Assembly (NCBI GenBank): GCA_964559995.1
Contig: CAZLKK010000001.1
Coordinates: forward strand, 1-38,521
Reading direction: 5' to 3'
DNA from: an uncultured Chloroflexaceae bacterium
GTDB taxonomy: Bacteria; Chloroflexota; Chloroflexia; Chloroflexales; Chloroflexaceae
DNA length: 38,521 nucleotides
The notes below the pieces were generated by a model that saw only the letters and a list, made by a program, of their open reading frames with translations, was not told the origin of the DNA and made no database searches. Within the stretch, counting starts at the first letter, position 1. Every line of letters starts with the position of its first letter. Positions 8,991 to 37,517 of the stretch are shown piece after piece. The position numbers and the translations under genes are program-made.

Positions 8991-9304
8991 CTATAATATT
9001 TAGCTTTGTGCGCCTTTGCTATGACCCGCATAATCCTGGTTCGCTTCCCTACGCTATCACGGGATGAGTCTGGTCAACATCGGTTTGCTCGCACAAGCCC
9101 AAGACGGAAACGGCTTGGGTCATTGACTCCCTCTATATAAACGAACACGTCCTGCATAATTTCTCCAGGATACCCTCTTCTTATGATAGCATCTCTTGGC
9201 TAAAATCGCCACATTGCAATGAGGAGAAAATAGGATTATGGCAAAGTCTAAGTTGCTCCCTAACCCCTGCCCCCGCTCCTTTCAAGGGTAGGTCAAATGG
9301 GCAA

Positions 9305-9394
9305 TTTTTTTATTTCCCTCTCCCCCCTGCCCCCGCTCCCAGAGGACAAGGGGGAGCCGTCCGATCTTCCCTTCTCCCGCTTGCGGGGAAAAAG
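9305..9394 (+). repeat. ~90-nt G/C-rich structured intergenic repeat element, copy B (plus orientation), with an extra partial core at 9264..9279
   Basis: Sequence: TTTTTTTATTTCCCTCTCCCCCCTGCCCCCGCTCCCAGAGGACAAGGGGGAGCCGTCCGATCTTCCCTTCTCCCGCTTGCGGGGAAAAAG. The core CCCCTGCCCCCGCTCC is repeated at 9264..9279. Related copies occur at 31347..31420 and 37317..37517. Confidence 0.7.
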
Positions 9395-9486: not shown

Positions 9487-10425
9487 ATGCCAAACACACA
9501 TACCCCCCATTCCCCCAACGGCTCCCGCAAACTTGGCATGCTCATGGGAATAGCCGGGGCGTTAGCCGGCGGCATCATCGCCTGGAAGCGCATCCAACGA
9601 CAACCGTTCATCCCCACCCCGCAAATGCGCGTGGTATTGCCAACCCCCGCTCCCCACAACGCCGGTACTGCACTCATTACCGGCGCGTCTAGCGGTATAG
9701 GGGCAGCCTATGCCCAACGTCTAGCAGCAATCGGCTATGATCTCATTATCGTGGCACGGCGCGAGGATCGACTCCAAACATTGGCAACAGATATTGAGCA
9801 AAAGCATGGGGTATCGGTAGAGGTGCTCGTGGCAGACCTTGCTGTCCCCGCGGATGTAGACCGCGTAGCCGAGCGTATAGCCGCATGCGACACGCTCACG
9901 ATGCTGGTCAACAACGCTGGTTTTGGCTTGATTGGCGCGTTTGCCGATTTGCCCATAGAAAAGCACATGGCAATGATCCATGTGCATGTCTTGGCAAGTG
10001 TGCGCTTTTGCCATGCAGTCCTACCGGGCATGCTGGCGCGGGGGCATGGCAGCATCATCAACGTTTCCTCCATTGCAGCTTTCTTGCCACGCCCTAACAA
10101 CGTCATCTATAGCCCAACGAAAATGTACCTCAAGACCTTTACCGAAGGGTTGCGAGAAGAGCTAGATGGCAGCAATATTCAGTTGCAAGTAGTGTTTCCC
10201 GGCTTGACCAAAACCGAGTTTTTTGATCGCCCTGAGATAGGTGGTACACGGGTCAAGGTTCCTGAATTTCTGTGGATGACTGCTGAGGAAGTGGTAGATG
10301 GGTCGCTCAAGGCGTTACAGCGGGGGCAGTTTTCCTGTTTACCGGGGGCAAAAAACCGTTTGCTGCTGTTTTTGCTTCGCAACAGAGGGATGCTCAAGGG
10401 GTTTCGACGGTTGATAGCGAGATAA
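9487..10425 (+). CDS. SDR-family NAD(P)-dependent oxidoreductase with an N-terminal hydrophobic segment
   Basis: 312 aa. Motifs: LITGASSGIGAAYA (TGxxxGxG), LVNNAGFG, NVSSIAA ... YSPTKMY (Ser/YxxxK catalytic motif). The N-terminal LGMLMGIAGALAGGIIAW looks membrane-spanning. Confidence 0.85.
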   Translation: MPNTHTPHSPNGSRKLGMLMGIAGALAGGIIAWKRIQRQPFIPTPQMRVVLPTPAPHNAGTALITGASSGIGAAYAQRLAAIGYDLIIVARREDRLQTLATDIEQKHGVSVEVLVADLAVPADVDRVAERIAACDTLTMLVNNAGFGLIGAFADLPIEKHMAMIHVHVLASVRFCHAVLPGMLARGHGSIINVSSIAAFLPRPNNVIYSPTKMYLKTFTEGLREELDGSNIQLQVVFPGLTKTEFFDRPEIGGTRVKVPEFLWMTAEEVVDGSLKALQRGQFSCLPGAKNRLLLFLLRNRGMLKGFRRLIAR

Positions 10426-10491: not shown

Positions 10492-13400
10492 CTACAAATC
10501 TGCCAGCAAGATGGCGGCTTCGGTCTGTCCGCGGTAATAGCCGGTTTGGTTGCTCAACTGTTGGGCATAGGACGCTTCTGTATGGGCAGTCTCACGATCC
10601 CCTATCGCCATGTAGACATACGCCAACGCAATGCGGATAGCTGCCTCGTGGAGCCGATAACCCCCCGCCATCGCTAGGCTTAGGGCTTCTTCTAGTGAGC
10701 TACGGGCTACCTGAAAGGCGGATATATACTCTTTGGGGGGTTCCGGTTGGGGAGGAGCATTACCCCCCCTTGCCATCCCCGATTGTTCATCATAACGTGC
10801 CTGCCTCCGCTCGGCGGAGGCGGACAACCGCTCCTTTATCTGGTTGACAAACGTGCGCTCAGGACGGAAGGGCAACTGCTCTGAGATGCCATCTATGAGC
10901 TTAATCCACCCGCCACCAGTATTGCCCCGCGTGGTAGGGGCTTGGGCATCCAGCGGCACCCGCAACGAACGTCCGCGAGTACGTGCTCTCGTCCCCACCC
11001 GCGCCACAGTAAATCGCCTAGCAGTCTCCGGGTTGCTCTGTACCCAGAACTTACGCGAGGTTGAGGAGTCCCCGTCTTCTGTTGCCGTGTCCTTATCCCC
11101 ATCGAGGTCTTCATCGTCTAGCCCCGGCTCATCCTCAACCACCGGGGTAACTTTTTCGCTGAGGAGTGTGGCGATTGTCCGTTGTTGGGTATCTGATGGG
11201 GTTTCGCTGTCGTCTTCGCCTACGCTTTGATCATCTGCCAACCCGATGCTGCCTACGCCTCGCGCCGCCCATAGCCCCCGTGCCAACAACGTTTCAATGA
11301 GCACGAGCCGCCGTGGGATGCCCCGCGCTACCTTGATAGCTTCCTGGTAATGCTGATAGGCAGTCTCTTGGTTTCCCTGCTGGCTATCCAGATCAGCCAA
11401 GATACGATAGCAACGGCTGATCTCTTCTTTCCAGTTGTAGTGTTGGCAGAGCTTCAGATTGGCTTCTATTACCTGGCGTGCTGTATCCATACTGCCAGTC
11501 TGATAGAGATGCTCTGCATACCACCCCCCCCGCTGGTTATAGAGCGAGTAGACATCCGGGTTAGCCTCTCGTTCTAGCAGTTCTGCCCAAACAAAGGTAG
11601 AACGAGCCATAACAAAGTGTCCGCACAGGTGGGCAACCCATGCCTGAAGTGACGATGCCAGCATCTCAAGGTAGCGGTTTTGTGCCTGCCGTGCCAGCAT
11701 AAGCGATTGGCGAATGTATGCGCTGCTTTCGGCAAGCATCCCCCGCTCCATAGCCACATACGCAAGGTGGTAAGCGGCGGTATGGGCGGTGTGCCAGTTT
11801 TGCGCTTCAGTTGCAAGCGTGAGACATTGGCGATAACAAATCGCAGCTTTGGGATACTCGCCTAGATAGTAAAAACAACGGGCAGTTTGGTCAAGCAGGT
11901 GGTAGCAGTGGGTTGTATCGTCAAGTAGCGGCGGTTGGGTAATGTCGCCATTTGGGAAAAATTCCAAGAACAGTGTGCAAGCCAGTTCATACGCGCCCAT
12001 TTGGTCAGTCAAGATACTGACCTCTTGTTGTTGACAGAGATAGTCTTGGTATATGTGCCACGCCTCCGCATATGCCCCCGCTTGGCAGGCGTGGTAGCAG
12101 GCTTCCCTAGCAGGCACTAGATCATGGAGCGTGGGGAGCGGTTGATCGCGCTCGACCAGCGAGAGGTAGTACTCTTTGATGGTATGGTGCAAAGCGGGGA
12201 GTTGGGGGTGTATATCCACCAACTGCACAAGGCGGTTTCGAGCGTAGGTATGGATGAGCGGGTGCAAGATGAAATACCCCTCCTCCTCATCGTAGGTAAG
12301 AATACGATAGTTGACCAGTTGCTCAAGCATCTGTTGGAAGGTGTCATCTTCCAACGCGAGCAGCGGGTCAAGCAATATATCGAACAGGCTGCACGCGTCT
12401 TCGGTCTCTGCTGCATTTTCCCCAACCTCTGGCTCTATTGGCTCTGTTGGTTGCTCTATCTCACTGTCTGGCTCATTCCCCCCCCCATCCGTCTGCTGTG
12501 CCATACCCAGCCGTGTGTCCCCGTTTGCATCCTCCCCATTATCGGGGATGCTGATAGCGCGGGTGGTGCTGGTACCGCTGGTGATAATGGTGATAGTCCG
12601 TGCCGCGGGGGGGGATGCTACGGGAGAATCTTCCCCCCCATCCCCTGCCTCATCGTCTACACCAGGGGGAGCAGGTTCTTCGGTTCCCCCTTGCTCTGTA
12701 TGGGAGCGGGGGCTAGGGGGAGCGGGGGCATCTTCCCCCCCATCCCCTGCCTCATCGTCTACACCGGTGGCATCATCATTGATACACAGAACCACAGAGT
12801 CCGGGCAGGAGACCCCAGTCAAGAGTTCATGATAGACCTCGTTATTGTCAGACTCTTTCTGTTTCTGTGTTTCTGCATCTCTGTCAGATGTCTCTTGTTC
12901 GGACTCCGTGCCACTCCGTGTTTCCGTGTCTCCGTGGTGAACTTTGTCCGGTAGACATCCCTTTGAAGAAACATCTTCCCCCCCATCCCCTGTCCCATCG
13001 TCTATTGTGGGGGGAGCAGGTTCGTCATCCCCTGCCCCACGTCCCACGAGGGGAGAAGGGGAGTCGTTAGGGGGAGCGGGGGGGGCAGGATTATCTCGCA
13101 CCGAGATCGCTATACCCGTTGATTTACGGAGGGGAATAGACGATGATCTTGGCTCACGCTTGGCAGTATCTGCAATGTCATTATCAGCAGCAGTATCGGG
13201 GTCATCAGGGATGGTGATTTCTATGCCCATTGGGATGCGGAAGGGGATGTCGTCATCACCATCATCATTGCCCCTACCCCTACTACCACCACGGCTCCCC
13301 CGAACAACAACGCGATTACTTGGAGTACCTTGCCAATCGCTTGCTTCATCTCTGTTATCAGTATCCCCTGCATCCTCGATGCCCTCTGCGTCCTCGATGC

Positions 13401-15102
13401 CCTCTGTGTCCTCGATGCCCTCTGCGTCCTCGATGCCCTCTGCGTCCTCGAAGCCCTCTGCGTCCTCGCTGCTTTCCCCAAAGGTAGGCTCACCTTGCAC
13501 TATCTCCATCCCCATTGCTGGCGATTGTGGGGGGGCAGGATAATTCCCCTCGGCAAGCAGCTGGAGCATACGGTAGCGTGCCAAAAAAGCGTCACCATTG
13601 CCCTGATAGGTCTGCATCAGGTAGCTACTCATCATACAGAGCGTCAGCGGGTGAGCATCACACGCTGCGACAATTTCGTCTAGCGTTTCCGTGCTGCCCT
13701 TTAGCCCTAGCCGTTGGGCAAGCGCATACCCTTCATCAGGCAACAGCGGCGGCAACTGATGCTGCGTGTAGGAGGGATAGTCAAGCAGATCAAAGATAGG
13801 GGTACGACTGATCAGCACACAGAGCGAGCCATGTTTTATACCAGCAAGGTAGGCGAGAAACTCGCGCAAGTTGGGGCTAGTCAGCATCCCATATTGCTCA
13901 CTATCCTGATGCAACAGCGTTTCTATGCCGTCTAGGATGAAGAGCGATGGACGGCTCGTGACCATTGCGCCGAGGGTCTGCACCCGCATACTCGTTGACG
14001 GCAGCAAGTGGGGGTCTATGCGTGTGCCGCTCAGGTGGGTGAGGGCAGCCAACAAAAACTCATCCACACTCCCCCGCTCCTGAAAATTCCACCAAAACGC
14101 GCTTTCTGGTTGGCGTATCGTCTTATCTGACCACACCTTGCGGAGCCAACGGCGCACCAGACTACTTTTGCCCTGTCCTGCTGCGCCTACGACTCCTACC
14201 ACCTGACAATGGGGATTGCTCAACGCTTCGCTCAAGTGTTGAACCATTGGTTCTTGCCCCACCCAGCGGGTTACAAGCGGCGGTGCATCATACAGCATCT
14301 TACCCGCCCGCGGTATCGCCATCGGATGGGTTGTTGCCCCATCACTGCGTGGGTGATAGCCGGTGCGCTTTCGCATTGGCATATCGTACACCGACACCCC
14401 AAAGGGAGCTTTGCTCAAGATACGGCTACTCACTGCCCAAGCCTTTGGAGTATCCGTTTTGGCTACAACCGGTTGGGATGTGTTTCCAAAGGGGGAGAAG
14501 CTCATCGGAGCGGTAGTTGTGGGGGGGGGAGCAGGAGCAACGATACCAACAACCAAATTGCGCTCAATATCCAAAATAGCCGACCCTGCCAAGTGGTCTA
14601 TTGGCTGCGAGGGACTCAACTTGATACTACCGGGGGGGGCAGCAGGTCCTGCCATACCCGGTAGGGATTGGATCGTCCCTTCAACAAGGACCGGCTTGGG
14701 TTGATCTGCCGAGAAGCCATAGCAACGGAAGGGATGATTGAGCGAACGCTCTGGTGTGCCAAGCACCGCGATCTGCTCTGGGGCAAGCGGTACTTGCCCA
14801 TCCGTCAAGCGCAACAGCACAACAGGCTCCCCATTCGGAGCCATGCTATGGAGTGCGGCACGGGAGGAGTTGGGCAAATCGCTGCCTATTTGGGGAAAGA
14901 CCACAACCACCTCTTGTTCTGGCAGGGAGGTTGTGGGATTCGCTGGCAGGGTAATACCAGCGGCTGCGACAACAGACGGGGCAGTTGCTATGAGACCATC
15001 TCGTGAGACAACAATACCTGCGCCGACAAGTTCACCGGTATGCGGATGGCGGAGTTGGACAGTGAAGTCGCGCAGGTTTTGTAAGCGAATATTGGGATTC
15101 AC
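10492..15102 (-). CDS. STAND NTPase: degenerate trypsin-like domain, NB-ARC-type P-loop ATPase, ~360-aa acidic low-complexity insert, winged helix, and a TPR array carrying a second insert
   Basis: 1536 aa; GTG start 25 nt after the ArsA-like stop.
- N-terminus: GAGIVVSRDGLIATAPSVV ... EPVVLLRL ... CYGF ... AGSAILDIERNLVVGIV follows the Trypsin_2 pattern, but without the usual His and Asp.
- NTPase: Walker A VVGAAGQGKSSL, Walker B SLFILDGIETLL, then LISRTP and LPPLLPDEGYALAQ.
- Winged helix: LVNYRILTYDEEEGYFILHPLIHTYARNRL.
- C-terminal half: TPR-like helical repeats such as CFYYLGEYPKAAICYRQCL and AYHLAYVAMERGMLAESSAYIRQSL. Confidence 0.75.
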   Translation of the reverse strand: MNPNIRLQNLRDFTVQLRHPHTGELVGAGIVVSRDGLIATAPSVVAAAGITLPANPTTSLPEQEVVVVFPQIGSDLPNSSRAALHSMAPNGEPVVLLRLTDGQVPLAPEQIAVLGTPERSLNHPFRCYGFSADQPKPVLVEGTIQSLPGMAGPAAPPGSIKLSPSQPIDHLAGSAILDIERNLVVGIVAPAPPPTTTAPMSFSPFGNTSQPVVAKTDTPKAWAVSSRILSKAPFGVSVYDMPMRKRTGYHPRSDGATTHPMAIPRAGKMLYDAPPLVTRWVGQEPMVQHLSEALSNPHCQVVGVVGAAGQGKSSLVRRWLRKVWSDKTIRQPESAFWWNFQERGSVDEFLLAALTHLSGTRIDPHLLPSTSMRVQTLGAMVTSRPSLFILDGIETLLHQDSEQYGMLTSPNLREFLAYLAGIKHGSLCVLISRTPIFDLLDYPSYTQHQLPPLLPDEGYALAQRLGLKGSTETLDEIVAACDAHPLTLCMMSSYLMQTYQGNGDAFLARYRMLQLLAEGNYPAPPQSPAMGMEIVQGEPTFGESSEDAEGFEDAEGIEDAEGIEDTEGIEDAEGIEDAGDTDNRDEASDWQGTPSNRVVVRGSRGGSRGRGNDDGDDDIPFRIPMGIEITIPDDPDTAADNDIADTAKREPRSSSIPLRKSTGIAISVRDNPAPPAPPNDSPSPLVGRGAGDDEPAPPTIDDGTGDGGEDVSSKGCLPDKVHHGDTETRSGTESEQETSDRDAETQKQKESDNNEVYHELLTGVSCPDSVVLCINDDATGVDDEAGDGGEDAPAPPSPRSHTEQGGTEEPAPPGVDDEAGDGGEDSPVASPPAARTITIITSGTSTTRAISIPDNGEDANGDTRLGMAQQTDGGGNEPDSEIEQPTEPIEPEVGENAAETEDACSLFDILLDPLLALEDDTFQQMLEQLVNYRILTYDEEEGYFILHPLIHTYARNRLVQLVDIHPQLPALHHTIKEYYLSLVERDQPLPTLHDLVPAREACYHACQAGAYAEAWHIYQDYLCQQQEVSILTDQMGAYELACTLFLEFFPNGDITQPPLLDDTTHCYHLLDQTARCFYYLGEYPKAAICYRQCLTLATEAQNWHTAHTAAYHLAYVAMERGMLAESSAYIRQSLMLARQAQNRYLEMLASSLQAWVAHLCGHFVMARSTFVWAELLEREANPDVYSLYNQRGGWYAEHLYQTGSMDTARQVIEANLKLCQHYNWKEEISRCYRILADLDSQQGNQETAYQHYQEAIKVARGIPRRLVLIETLLARGLWAARGVGSIGLADDQSVGEDDSETPSDTQQRTIATLLSEKVTPVVEDEPGLDDEDLDGDKDTATEDGDSSTSRKFWVQSNPETARRFTVARVGTRARTRGRSLRVPLDAQAPTTRGNTGGGWIKLIDGISEQLPFRPERTFVNQIKERLSASAERRQARYDEQSGMARGGNAPPQPEPPKEYISAFQVARSSLEEALSLAMAGGYRLHEAAIRIALAYVYMAIGDRETAHTEASYAQQLSNQTGYYRGQTEAAILLADL
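12628..13004 (-). repeat. In-frame direct repeats inside the STAND low-complexity insert
   Basis: Perfect 36-nt repeat ATCTTCCCCCCCATCCCCTGCCTCATCGTCTACACC at 12628..12663 and 12730..12765, with a diverged third copy at 12973..13004. On the minus strand these encode ..GVDDEAGDGGED.. and ..TIDDGTGDGGED... Confidence 0.85.
13374..13468 (-). repeat. 18-nt tandem repeat, about 5.5 units, in frame (hexapeptide ED(A/T)EG(I/F))
   Basis: The plus-strand unit CCTCGATGCCCTCTGCGT repeats from 13374 with single-base variants. It translates on the minus strand to EDAEGFEDAEGIEDAEGIEDTEGIEDAEGIED. Confidence 0.9.
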
Positions 15103-30186: not shown

Positions 30187-30316
30187 GTCCCCAGGTAGTC
30201 CTGCTTGCCCCCCCGCTCCCCCCCTTGACAATCATTACCGTATCTTGCCCCCTCGACTCCTTGAACCGTGTATAATGGGAGTATTAAAGACAACCAGCAT
30301 AAGAAAAGAGGGAACT

Positions 30317-31333: not shown

Positions 31334-31452
31334 GGTCATGGCAATGAAGGGGCGAGGGGGAGCCGCCCCAGCGACCCGCTCCCCTACTACGCGGGAGCGG
31401 GGGCGGGGGGAGCGGGTGAAAAATCCTTTGATTGGGCAACATTGCCATGACC
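31334..31452. repeat. 119-nt element bounded by 13-bp perfect inverted repeats, enclosing a member of the G/C-rich repeat family (MITE-like, or a long structured RNA/terminator)
   Basis: GGTCATGGCAATG (31334..31346) pairs with CATTGCCATGACC (31440..31452). The interior holds GGCGAGGGGGAGCCG and the inner inverted repeat ACCCGCTCCCC (31374..31384) / GGGGAGCGGGT (31407..31417). It sits between the galE stop and the kinase promoter. Confidence 0.65.
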
Positions 31453-37289: not shown

Positions 37290-37353
37290 CAAAGGCGGCA
37301 CACTCCTAAGATTTTGCCCTTTTTTTCCCCCCTGCCCCTATCCAATAAAGGGC

Positions 37354-37517
37354 GAGGGGGTACCGAACATTGGGCGCACCGCCGTGCGCCCCTACGGAAC
37401 GTCTTCTCCCGCGTAGTGGGGGAAAGGAGACCGGATGGCTCCCCCTCGCCTTCTGGGAGAGGGGGAGCCGAACATTGGGCGCACGTCGGTGCGCCCCTAC
37501 GGATCGTCTTCTCCCGC
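37354..37517 (+). repeat. Two 59-nt direct repeat copies (period 105 nt), each with an 8-bp GC hairpin; members of the G/C-rich intergenic repeat family
   Basis: Copy 1 spans 37354..37412 and copy 2 spans 37459..37517. Consensus: GAGGGGG(TA/AG)CCGAACATTGGGCGCAC(NNNN)GTGCGCCCCTACGGA(A/T)CGTCTTCTCCCGC. The hairpins GGGCGCAC-CGCC-GTGCGCCC (37372..37391) and GGGCGCAC-GTCG-GTGCGCCC (37477..37496) differ mainly in the loop. In addition, GGCGAGGGGG (37351..37360) pairs with CCCCCTCGCC (37441..37450). They lie between convergent stops at 37289 and 37549. Confidence 0.8.

What the first reader, a model, noticed from the sequence alone, without database searches (positions are those of the whole stretch)
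12405..13495. ~360-aa acidic Gly/Pro-rich insert splitting the STAND NTPase module, built from internal repeats and containing the intergenic repeat core
**Position.** An Asp/Glu/Gly/Pro/Thr-rich tract of roughly residues 535-900 lies between the NTPase helical region (...QLLAEGNYPAPPQSPAMGMEIVQGE) and the winged helix (...ACSLFDILLDPLL...YRILTYDEEEGYFILHP). STAND cores are normally contiguous at this point.

**Internal repeats.**
- 5.5 units of an 18-nt tandem repeat at 13374..13468.
- A perfect 36-nt direct repeat at 12628..12663 and 12730..12765, with a diverged third copy at 12973..13004.

**Shared string with intergenic repeats.** GGGAGCGGGGGC (12702..12713), GGGGGAGCGGGGGC (12716..12729) and GGGGAGCGGGGGGGGCAGG (13071..13089) are reverse complements of the CCCCTGCCCCCGCTCC core of the intergenic repeat family (9264..9279 and 9322..9340). 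On the coding strand they read as PAPP-type peptides.

**Hypothesis.** The insert arose by in-frame capture and expansion of the dispersed repeat element. This would make a hypervariable disordered linker in a putative sensor.
Basis: partly seen in the sequence, partly recalled or inferred. Interest (0 to 1): 0.62.

Follow-up and report, generated by a model that had tools for sequence, protein, structure and literature searches.

The report
Repeat-built disordered insert in STAND protein
A large signalling ATPase of an uncultured Chloroflexaceae bacterium carries a roughly 375-residue acidic, disordered insert in its hinge, built partly from in-frame copies of a selfish GC-rich repeat that litters this genome; this is a real and striking example of a phenomenon already known from Rickettsia.

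Summary
Window 12403-13530 (minus strand) encodes about 375 acidic Gly/Pro-rich residues between the NB-ARC helical domain and the winged helix of a 1536-aa protein with a trypsin-like (catalytically dead), NB-ARC and TPR architecture.

- **Not chance:** the shared G/C strings belong to near-complete units of a mosaic palindromic repeat. Module A has about 438 copies genome-wide and module CD about 118.
- **Lineage-specific:** 120 homologues of about 1000-1050 aa lack the insert. Only the one true orthologue (88% nt identity) has it, at the same site but with very different repeat copy numbers. The repeat family occurs in just these two of nine genomes of the genus.
- **Genome-wide process:** the element also sits in frame in HypF, in PMT-type glycosyltransferases and in other genes.
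only about a third of the insert traces to dispersed repeats. The rest includes three copies of a unique motif (I[ST][IV][PR]D[DN]) under purifying selection.
- **Disorder:** AlphaFold2 gives pLDDT below 50 across most of the insert.
- **Assembly caveat:** the 27 nt at 12369-12395, which truncate the winged helix, look like an assembly patch.

Verdict: an RPE-like in-frame repeat colonisation with tandem amplification, that is, a new member of a known kind.

The parts
10492..15102 (-). 1536-aa ORF: trypsin-like pseudoprotease, NB-ARC/NACHT STAND NTPase, insert 1, winged helix, TPR, insert 2, terminal TPR
   Evidence: dN/dS against the orthologue is 0.13-0.18 in the flanking domains.
14542..15024 (-). 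Trypsin_2-like domain with the catalytic His, Asp and Ser replaced (TCAHV becomes TAPSV, HDDD becomes NGEP, GMSG becomes LAGS)
   Evidence: Pfam E 6e-4; alignment A1.
13591..14265 (-). NB-ARC/NACHT NTPase core; Walker A GAAGQGKS at 14164-14187
   Evidence: AlphaFold2 pLDDT about 90.
12403..13530 (-). Insert 1, residues about 525-900: acidic and predicted disordered, between the helical domain and the winged helix
   Evidence: Absent from homologues. pLDDT below 50 for residues 525-733 and 766-900. Composition.
13368..13472 (-). 18-nt coding tandem array, 5.8 copies, read as (EDAEGI)n. The orthologue has an EDIEDT-type array here instead.
   Evidence: X4 contig with 104 nt in place of 113 nt.
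13198..13248 (-). Motif copy 1, IPFRIPMGIEITIPDDP. The 75-nt unit holding it is triplicated in the orthologue.
13087..13137 (-). Motif copy 2, IPLRKSTGIAISVRDNP
12535..12582 (-). Motif copy 3, TSGTSTTRAISIPDNG. It lies in a 26-residue stretch identical in the orthologue despite 6 synonymous nt differences.
13066..13092 (-). Fragment of repeat module A, read as NPAPPAPPN.
12978..13063 (-). Two adjacent copies of repeat module CD, read as SPSPLVGRGAGDD and PAPPTIDDGTGDGGED
   Evidence: nhmmer E 3e-5 and 7e-4; blastn to 31 genomic copies.
12847..12945 (-). Module E, a second dispersed repeat family, read as KVHHGDTETRSGTESEQETSDRDAETQKQKESD
   Evidence: tblastn to C78, C231 and C12 at E 6e-10 to 1e-8; blastn.
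12628..12765 (-). 1.35 copies of a 102-nt unit: a 36-nt perfect repeat (module D part, read as GVDDEAGDGGED) at both ends, 12730-12765 and 12628-12663, around a near-complete module A
   Evidence: X1 contigs match 12574-12947 over three overlapping contigs: two without difference, the third (12729-12947) with 3 differing letters.
12671..12730 (-). Near-complete copy of palindromic repeat module A in sense orientation, read as APAPPSPRSHTEQGGTEEPAPP. A 1-nt insertion shifts its internal frame.
   Evidence: nhmmer E 1e-8; blastn to 128 copies; frames.
12369..12395 (-). 27-nt patch (ACSLFDILL) replacing about 55 residues of the first winged-helix helices; probably an assembly chimera
11251..12378 (-). 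Rest of the winged helix (HPLIH at 12250-12264) and the TPR array
10726..11238 (-). Insert 2, residues about 1289-1459: older, shared with the dead-protease sub-clade, and not related to insert 1
9264..9340 (+).

Best explanation
Insert 1 is a real, lineage-specific, intrinsically disordered acidic linker. It lies in the hinge between the helical domain (HD1/ARC1) and the winged-helix domain of a STAND ATPase with a trypsin-like (inactive), NB-ARC and TPR architecture.

**How it grew**
- A GC-rich mosaic repeat family expanded only in this species pair. Module A is a 47-nt hairpin-forming unit. Modules CD and E are further parts of the mosaic.
- Units of this family inserted into an already permissive surface loop in sense orientation.
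- Module A has no stop codon in any of its six frames and module CD has none in five of six (module E was not checked).
- So any copy, or any tandem duplication whose length is a multiple of three, leaves the downstream winged helix and TPR in frame and survives selection.
- Replication slippage or unequal recombination between the repeats then changes copy number quickly. Units seen are 102 nt here; 51, 75 and 99 nt in the orthologue; and 18 nt in the acidic microsatellite.

**What it probably does**
- Inferred: the repeat-derived parts are largely tolerated spacer.
- Shown as conservation, with function inferred: interspersed islands, three copies of I[ST][IV][PR]D[DN] and the NRVVVRGSRGG segment, are conserved under purifying selection. 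They probably act as short linear motifs.

The same element family has colonised about 15 other genes of this genome in frame, so the process is genome-wide and not specific to this sensor.
For: **Real**
- Both junctions of the insert are covered by independent contigs of the source-type sample (X1 13432-13587; X2 12396-12496). 12574-12947 is covered by three overlapping X1 contigs, two without difference and the third (12729-12947) with 3 differing letters.
- An independently assembled orthologue has an insert at the same site, in frame on both sides.

**Lineage-specific**
- The 120 best homologues are 923-1345 aa long and lack it.
- In the genus, only G006 has an orthologue.

**Repeat-derived**
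- Evidence. Module A has 438 copies and module CD 118.
- The 16-mer core occurs 185 times here and 257 times in G006. It occurs 0-1 times in 29 other relatives.
- The module A consensus folds at -26.7 kcal/mol, z -3.2.
- The module A consensus has no stop codon in any of the six frames.

**Frame kept and gene functional**
- The coding frame has 0 stops; the other frames have 3-34.
- dN/dS is 0.13-0.18 in the flanking domains.

**Hypervariable**
- Copy numbers of every repeat class differ between the two species.
- Both orthologue contigs break inside the array.

**Disordered**
- pLDDT is below 50 for residues 525-733 and 766-900, and about 90 in the flanks.

**Genome-wide process**
- 13 ORFs of at least 300 aa hold module A internally, 11 of them in sense orientation.
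- The HypF insert splits the HypF_C domain. It is absent from the two genus members without the repeat that could be aligned, G003 and G008.

**Conserved islands**
-.
Against: - Only about a third of the insert can be traced to dispersed repeats. The origin of the scaffold, and of the first insertion, is not shown.
- No target-site duplication, terminal inverted repeat or mobilising enzyme was identified, so insertion is inferred from presence and absence patterns, not from a mechanism.
- Short-read contigs cannot confirm the long-range order or the copy number of the repeats. Sample depth is about 3x, and several stretches (12497-12573, 12948-12991, 13153-13372) are not covered.
- There are no RNA or protein data showing that the insert is translated.
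- The strong sense and frame bias and the conserved motifs could mean more function than tolerated spacer.
Confidence: 0.8

Rival explanations
1. The insert is an adaptive module. On this view it is a selected, hypervariable acidic disordered region in the NOD hinge. It could tune auto-inhibition, act as a nucleic-acid mimic or decoy, or present docking motifs to a partner such as the adjacent Get3/ArsA-like ATPase. Repeat-driven length variation would then be selected, as in a contingency locus.
For: - Motif islands are under purifying selection. One stretch of 26 residues is fully identical with 6 synonymous differences, and four segments together show 18 synonymous nt differences against 5 amino-acid changes.
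- The motif is unique to this protein in the genome.
- A different family member, P0004, independently carries an acidic repeat (GERDEGDEA x3) at the same hinge.
- There is a sense and frame bias among in-gene copies.
Against: - The same repeat units sit in HypF and in membrane glycosyltransferases. A shared sensor-specific role there is implausible.
- The longer alignable insert segments have dN/dS of 0.47-0.59.
- No functional or expression data exist.
- There is no significant similarity to insert 2. The tblastn of three repeat-poor insert segments against this genome gave only low-complexity hits for the N-terminal segment and module-E repeat hits for the middle segment, and results for the C-terminal segment fell outside the lines shown.
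Confidence: 0.22
2. The gene is decaying. On this view the insert is junk accumulating in a pseudogene that merely happens to remain open.
For: - The protease catalytic residues are lost.
- The window copy lacks about 46 residues of the winged helix.
Against: - The flanking domains have dN/dS of 0.13-0.18 over about 1150 codons.
- The reading frame is kept over 1.1 kb while the other frames are closed.
- The loss of catalytic residues is shared by a whole sub-clade, so it is old and stable.
- The winged-helix truncation is not supported by the sample's own contigs, which carry the intact 165 nt.
Confidence: 0.05
3. The insert is an assembly artefact. On this view intergenic repeat DNA was wrongly threaded into the gene by a short-read assembler.
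For: - The repeats exceed typical k-mer sizes. Both orthologue contigs, and the Logan contigs, break inside the region.
- The window does contain one probable chimeric patch at 12369-12395.
Against: - Independent contigs from three runs match the window across both junctions and across the A/CD units with at most 3 differing letters.
- A separately assembled species has the insert at the same codon position with shared non-repeat segments.
- The frame is preserved.
Confidence: 0.04
4. The insert is removed after transcription or translation, as an intron or an intein.
For: None beyond its position inside a conserved module.
Against: - No Rfam family, including the intron families, matches anywhere in the window.
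- No Pfam intein or Hint domain was found.
- The region is low-complexity and predicted to be unstructured.
- Its length differs between the orthologues by repeat copy number.
Confidence: 0.01

Closest known systems
Rickettsia palindromic elements (RPEs; Ogata et al. 2000, as summarised in PMC10969869), together with the related Wolbachia and Coxiella cases (QMITE, PMC5896051)
   Same: - A dispersed, hairpin-forming, non-coding repeat family.
- It is mostly intergenic, but a minority of copies sit in frame inside unrelated functional genes and add peptide segments in loops.
- The insertions are absent from homologues in relatives that lack the element.
   Different: - Unrelated GC-rich sequence.
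- Shorter modular units of 47-50 nt that combine as a mosaic, against roughly 100-150 bp for RPEs.
- The host is a free-living phototrophic-mat Chloroflexaceae, not a reduced intracellular genome.
- Here the units also amplify in tandem inside one gene and contribute to a linker of several hundred residues.
REP/BIME mosaic elements of enterobacteria and pseudomonads, and the small dispersed repeats (SDR) of Nostoc-type cyanobacteria (recalled from Elhai et al. 2008, not checked here)
   Same: - Short palindromic units combined with other short motifs into variable mosaics (modules A, B, CD).
- Hundreds of copies per genome, restricted to particular lineages.
   Different: - There is no GTAG or CGTC tag.
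- A Y1 (RAYT-type) transposase does not co-occur with the repeats. It is absent from G006, which has the most copies, and present in repeat-free relatives.
- Classical REPs are extragenic.
Coding minisatellites and tandem-repeat linkers in bacterial proteins (contingency-type length variation)
   Same: - In-frame units of 18, 51, 75, 99 and 102 nt.
- Copy number differs between close relatives.
- The product is low-complexity and disordered.
   Different: - Part of the array units are copies of a genome-wide dispersed element, not locus-specific sequence.
- There is no evidence of phase variation or surface exposure.
Bacterial protease-STAND-TPR conflict and NLR-like proteins (Kaur et al. 2021, PMC8195603; Avs2-trypsin, bioRxiv 10.64898/2026.08.25.746987). 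The best fold match is the archaeal STAND-TPR structure 6mfv, followed among STAND proteins by CED-4.
   Same: - Domain order: N-terminal trypsin-like domain, then NB-ARC-type NTPase with winged helix, then TPR sensor.
- There are hundreds of homologues of about 1000 aa in Chloroflexota, cyanobacteria and other phyla.
   Different: - The catalytic triad is lost in this sub-clade.
- There is no PADLOC Avs hit and no sequence match to any solved structure.
- The protein carries two large inserts.

Membership tests
RPE-like in-frame palindromic repeat insertions (a phenomenon class, not a sequence family) | Multi-copy dispersed repeat family in the genome | tested here: met
   The 16-mer core occurs 185 times. 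Profile hits: 438 for module A and 118 for module CD.
RPE-like in-frame palindromic repeat insertions (a phenomenon class, not a sequence family) | The unit can form a stable hairpin (palindromic) | tested here: met
   The module A consensus folds at -26.7 kcal/mol, z -3.19, and 0 of 200 shuffles fold as well. Module CD is not better than shuffles (z +0.59).
RPE-like in-frame palindromic repeat insertions (a phenomenon class, not a sequence family) | Copies inserted in frame inside unrelated, otherwise conserved genes | tested here: met
   13 ORFs of at least 300 aa hold internal module A copies. They include HypF, a FAD-linked oxidase and PMT_2 glycosyltransferases.
RPE-like in-frame palindromic repeat insertions (a phenomenon class, not a sequence family) | The insert is absent at the same site in relatives that lack the element | tested here: met
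   HypF of G003 and G008 lacks the roughly 30-aa insert. STAND homologues lack insert 1.
RPE-like in-frame palindromic repeat insertions (a phenomenon class, not a sequence family) | Sequence homology to a described RPE, WPE or REP family | not tested
   No library of those elements was available. Rfam gave no match in the window.
MITE | Terminal inverted repeats and target-site duplication flanking each copy | tested here: inconclusive
   Module A is an internal palindrome. The flanks of the 161 aligned copies show only further mosaic modules and no consistent duplication. No empty-site comparison at nucleotide resolution was made.
REP/RAYT system | Co-occurrence with a Y1 (RAYT-type) transposase | tested here: not met
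   PF01797 is present once in G000, absent from G006 (257 core copies), and present in the repeat-free G003 and G008.
STAND NTPase, NB-ARC/AP-ATPase type with TPR sensor | P-loop NTPase with Walker A and Pfam NB-ARC/NACHT above the gathering score | tested here: met
   NB-ARC scores 24.5 against a cut-off of 23.5, and NACHT 26.9 against 26.7. Walker A is GAAGQGKS. Fold matches 6mfv, CED-4 and NRC1 NB-ARC.
STAND NTPase, NB-ARC/AP-ATPase type with TPR sensor | Contiguous helical domain and winged helix with the conserved His (MHD-like) | tested here: inconclusive
   HPLIH is present. The first winged-helix helices are missing from the window, but are present in the sample's own contigs and in the orthologue. 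The insert separates HD1 from the winged helix.
Trypsin-like serine protease (S1/Trypsin_2) | Catalytic His, Asp and Ser | tested here: not met
   All three are replaced here and in the orthologue. In P0002, P0003, P0004, P0009 and P0033 the catalytic His and the GMSG serine are also replaced, although some keep an Asp near the Asp position. The Pfam score is below the cut-off (20.9 against 27.6).
Avs (antiviral STAND) defence families | Match to a PADLOC Avs model | tested here: not met
   Only a weak TPR model hit, E 0.0067.

The most novel reading that the evidence does not exclude
The GC-rich mosaic element of this Chloroflexaceae species pair may be a coding-compatible mobile repeat. On this reading it preferentially persists, or inserts, in sense orientation and in one reading frame (PAPPAPAPIxGEG), and so acts as a generator of new flexible linkers in a free-living bacterium.

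In the STAND hinge it would have been exapted. Tandem arrays of the element would serve as adjustable spacers between three conserved docking motifs (I[ST][IV][PR]D[DN]), so that repeat copy number tunes how the sensor opens or whom it binds.
Probability: 0.12. Interest if true: 0.75.

Novelty: new member of a known kind. Interest (0 to 1): 0.45.

Why it matters
**A process caught in progress.** A selfish repeat family expanded in just two sister species. It is being written into proteins, including a housekeeping maturase (HypF) and an NLR-like sensor, without breaking them. It can then be amplified into hundreds of disordered residues.

**Extension of a known phenomenon.** In-frame colonisation of the RPE type is best known from reduced intracellular genomes. 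This case extends it to a free-living mat phototroph.

**A structural pointer.** The HD1 to winged-helix hinge of STAND proteins appears to be a highly permissive site. That is useful for engineering and for interpreting odd NLR architectures.

**A practical warning.** These repeats fragment metagenome assemblies, and contigs break exactly here. They can also hide local chimeras.

Tried and rejected
- **Insert 1 as a duplicate of insert 2:** BLASTP gives best E 0.24, so this is rejected.
- **Known RNA family or intron in the window:** Rfam gives no match at gathering thresholds.
- **REP/RAYT system:** the Y1 transposase does not track the repeats.
- **Phage origin of the element:** a 19-mer of module A finds nothing in viral contigs.
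- **More orthologues spanning the insert:** the JGI metagenome scan found none. The protein database holds no closer relative than 44% identity.
- **Solved structure by sequence:** none found.
- **PADLOC defence family:** none found.
- **Deriving the 27-nt patch from the 165-nt orthologous segment by deletions:** no meaningful alignment.
- **Homology of the insert's repeat-poor segments to anything else in the genome:** the tblastn of three segments gave only low-complexity hits at E 0.4 or worse for the N-terminal segment. The middle segment matched the module E repeat copies. Results for the C-terminal segment fell outside the lines shown.
- **RNA evidence:** the one metatranscriptome offered (X8) holds nothing of the region.
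Full report
**1. What is at the coordinates**

Window 10492..15102 (minus strand) is a single 1536-aa ORF. Pfam finds:
- a weak Trypsin_2 domain at residues 27-187;
- NACHT/NB-ARC/nSTAND1 at residues 280-504, with NB-ARC and NACHT just above their gathering scores;
- TPR repeats at residues 1071-1262.

The predicted fold of residues 270-1290 matches, best of all, the archaeal STAND-TPR structure 6mfv. After a series of TPR-only proteins, the next STAND matches are CED-4 and the NRC1 NB-ARC domain. The protein is therefore an AP-ATPase/NB-ARC-type STAND with an N-terminal trypsin-like domain and a TPR sensor.

- the 18-nt tandem array (TRF 13368-13472, 5.8 copies);
- the 36-nt perfect direct repeat at 12628-12663 and 12730-12765, with a diverged third copy;
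- the G-rich strings.

The coding frame has no stop over 12405-13495, while the other five frames have 3-34. The peptide is 13.7% Asp, 11.5% Glu, 12.6% Gly and 9.6% Pro, with net charge -68.

**2. The shared strings are part of whole repeat units**

The assembly that holds the window is 4.2 Mb in 539 contigs, about 87% complete. It contains the 16-mer CCCCTGCCCCCGCTCC 185 times.

Aligning the flanks of 161 copies gives a 47-nt consensus, module A: aCCCGCTCCCCCTGCCCCCGCTCCCATCCCAGGGCGAGGGGGAGCCG.
- It folds as a hairpin at -26.7 kcal/mol, z -3.2.
- It is usually followed by other short modules. One is a variable module B (AACATTGGGCGCACCGCCGTGCG...). Another is module CD (TTCCCCTTCTCCCCGCGGTGGGGGAAGGGCAGGGGATGGGGG).

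The family is thus a mosaic, in the manner of BIMEs. Profile searches count 438 copies of A and 118 of CD. They are mainly intergenic: the median spanning ORF is about 110 aa, against 405 aa for random positions.

Inside the gene:
- Window 12673-12753 aligns to up to 128 genomic copies over 45-53 nt at 89-95% identity.
- Profiles built only from copies outside the gene find one near-complete A (12671-12730, E 1e-8) and four CD copies or fragments (13026-13063, 12978-13020, 12736-12752 and 12633-12674).
- All are in the coding orientation, and 200 codon-shuffled genes give no hit.

A further stretch (12847-12945...HHGDTETRS...DRDAETQKQKESD) belongs to a second dispersed family. Copies occur on C78, C231 and C12 (E 6e-10 to 1e-8), and related peptides occur in other ORFs of the genome.

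Together these modules cover about 350 of the roughly 1130 nt.

**3. The insert is lineage-specific and fluid**

The 120 best homologues in the protein database are 923-1345 aa long, mostly 1000-1070 aa. At this point they are contiguous, with consensus ...GDVAHxxDIPxPTADEPRYERVHRVLRRYDEHLTxAERAFLxLFSAFRTPV....

Only one genome holds a true orthologue: an uncultured Chloroflexaceae MAG, G006 = CAYPHM01, with 88% nt identity in the flanks. Other genomes of the genus have only 35-42% identical paralogue-level relatives without the insert.

The orthologue has an insert at the same place, but it is built differently:
- an EDIEDT-type array where this gene has (EDAEGI)n;
- a 75-nt unit present three times instead of once;
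- at least 8 CD and 5 A-type units, against 4 and 1 here;
- no match for window 12753-12973.

Both orthologue contigs end inside the array, so its full length is unknown. It is at least about 450 aa.

The repeat family has the same distribution as the insert. It occurs 185 and 257 times in these two genomes, and 0-1 times in 29 other genomes of the genus, family and order.

**4. The gene is under selection; the insert is a mosaic of fluid and conserved parts**

- dN/dS against the orthologue is 0.18 for the trypsin-like domain, 0.13 for the NTPase, and 0.13 for the winged helix and TPR. The gene is not decaying.
- The longer alignable stretches of the insert give 0.47-0.59.
- Four short islands, however, are as constrained as the core domains. 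They show 18 synonymous nucleotide differences against 5 amino-acid changes in 92 codons. One is a 26-residue stretch (PPAARTITIITSGTSTTRAISIPDNG) that is identical despite 6 synonymous differences.
- Three of the islands are paralogous: IPFRIPMGIEITIPDDP, IPLRKSTGIAISVRDNP and ...TTRAISIPDNG.
- Their core, I[ST][IV][PR]D[DN], occurs three times in 1.56 million residues of long ORFs in this genome, and all three are in this insert.

AlphaFold2, run with a 70-sequence alignment, gives pLDDT of about 90 for the NTPase and the TPR. It gives pLDDT below 50 for residues 525-733 and 766-900, which fits an intrinsically disordered region.

**5. The same process acts elsewhere in the genome**

- Thirteen ORFs of at least 300 aa hold an internal copy of module A, eleven of them in sense orientation.
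- Among the six loci with an exact core, five read it in one frame as PAPPAPAPIxGEG.
- In HypF the unit splits the HypF_C (Kae1-like) domain. It is absent from the HypF of the two genus members without the repeat that could be aligned (G003, G008), and is present with one extra partial unit in G006.
- Other hosts include PMT_2-type membrane glycosyltransferases and a FAD-linked oxidase.
- The module A consensus has no stop codon in any of its six frames, and CD has none in five of six. This explains why in-frame survivors are possible.

**6. Mechanism**

The steps are marked as shown or inferred.
- Shown: the insert is real, specific to one species pair, disordered by prediction, and partly made of sense-oriented units of a dispersed hairpin repeat. 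It differs between sister species by unit copy number, and the frame is preserved.
- Inferred: units entered a permissive surface loop at the hinge between HD1 and the winged helix.
- Supporting the permissive-loop idea: another family member, P0004, independently carries an acidic GERDEGDEA x3 insertion at the same hinge.
- Inferred: slippage or unequal recombination between units then changes copy number, and selection on the downstream domains filters for stop-free lengths that are multiples of three.
- Inferred: the repeat-derived parts act mainly as tolerated spacer, while the conserved islands act as short linear motifs of unknown partner.
- Not found: a mobilising enzyme or a target-site signature. 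A Y1 (RAYT-type) transposase does not track the repeats.

**7. Assembly caveats**

Logan contigs of three runs from one microbial-mat sample (about 3x depth) support the assembly at several points:
- three overlapping contigs cover 12574-12947, two without difference and the third (12729-12947) with 3 differing letters;
- contigs match 12992-13152 and 13432-13587 without difference;
- a contig crosses from the insert into the winged-helix side (12396-12496).

Both junctions are therefore supported. The long-range order and the copy number of the repeats cannot be checked with these short contigs.

One local problem exists.
- The 27 nt at 12369-12395 code ACSLFDILL in place of about 55 residues of the first winged-helix helices. 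No contig of that sample covers them.
- Two runs instead carry 165 nt at this point. One of them reads into them from the insert side as ...DDLAQSAVAWF..., as in the orthologue.
- The 52 nt at 12348-12399 are identical to a contig of an unrelated sediment metagenome whose flanks are unlike the window.
- The 27 nt bear no relation to the 165 nt.

The most likely reading is a chimeric patch in the MAG contig. The true protein is then probably 1582 aa, with an intact winged helix.

**8. Comparison with what is known, and verdict**

In-frame insertion of dispersed palindromic repeats into working genes is established for Rickettsia palindromic elements. It has also been reported for some MITEs (PMC10969869, PMC5896051).

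This case meets the functional criteria of that class: a dispersed family, hairpin-forming, in frame in unrelated genes, and absent at the same site in element-free relatives. It is an unrelated, shorter, GC-rich mosaic family in a free-living Chloroflexaceae. It adds tandem amplification of the units inside one gene. It is best filed as a new member of a known kind.

The repeat inflated the insert and makes it hypervariable, but about half of the insert is a conserved scaffold of different, unknown origin.

Noticed in passing
window 12369-12395 (with 12348-12399): A 27-nt stretch replaces about 165 nt (46 more codons) of the first winged-helix helices.
- The sample's own contigs and the orthologue carry the intact version.
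- The 52 nt around it are identical to a contig from an unrelated sediment metagenome.
- It is probably a chimeric assembly patch.
   Followed up: partly
window 14542-15024; proteins P0002, P0003, P0004, P0009, P0033: The trypsin-like domain has lost its catalytic His, Asp and Ser here. The closest sub-clade of homologues has also lost the catalytic His and Ser (the Asp position is less clear). The roughly 1000-aa majority of the family keeps TCAHV, HDDD and GMSG. This sub-clade is therefore a pseudoprotease lineage.
   Followed up: partly
window 10726-11238 (residues about 1289-1459): A second, older insert sits inside the C-terminal TPR region. It is shared by the dead-protease sub-clade and has conserved basic motifs (RRFTVxRxG...RGNTGGxW). 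It is unrelated to insert 1.
   Followed up: partly
L009 (G000:C309:2983-5136), residues about 441-473: HypF carries one unit of the repeat in frame (PPAPPAPAPIKGEGDSDSLLPLAGEGAGGCPKE) inside its Kae1-like HypF_C domain. G006 has the same insert plus an extra partial unit. G003 and G008, which lack the repeat family, lack the insert.
   Followed up: yes
L003, L005, L006, L007, L008, L010, L011, L012 (contigs C338, C44, C56, C149, C6, C145, C256, C74): Large multi-pass membrane proteins carry repeat modules in frame in apparent loops. Several of them are PMT_2/PMT glycosyltransferase-like. Across all internal module A copies, 11 of 13 are in sense orientation, and 5 of 6 exact cores are read as PAPPAPAPIxGEG.
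   Followed up: partly
genomes G000 and G006 against 29 relatives: The repeat core is present 185 and 257 times in two sister species. It is essentially absent (0-1 copies) from seven other genomes of the genus and from the rest of the family and order. This points to a recent, lineage-restricted burst.
   Followed up: yes
protein P0004 (JGI metagenome, 1260 aa): An independent acidic repeat insertion (GERDEGDEA x3, about 70 aa) lies at the same hinge between the helical domain and the winged helix. This suggests that the site is generally permissive.
   Followed up: no
window 12847-12945; contigs C78, C231, C12, C149, C74: A second dispersed repeat is read as ...HHGDTETRS...EIPDxNAETQRRRDAE... 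It recurs both between genes and inside ORFs.
   Followed up: partly
window 9632-9662, 10318-10332, 30199-30226, 31348-31420, 37325-37507: Further high-copy k-mer islands of the same repeat family (11-mer counts of 200-413 genome-wide). The first two lie inside the ORF 9487-10425.
   Followed up: no
run X4 (a different mat sample), contig over window 13226-13900: A relative about 92% identical, G006-like, is present at about 52x depth. Its contig also ends inside the insert, and it has 104 nt in place of the 113-nt part of the 18-nt array. This shows that the array differs between lineages.
   Followed up: partly
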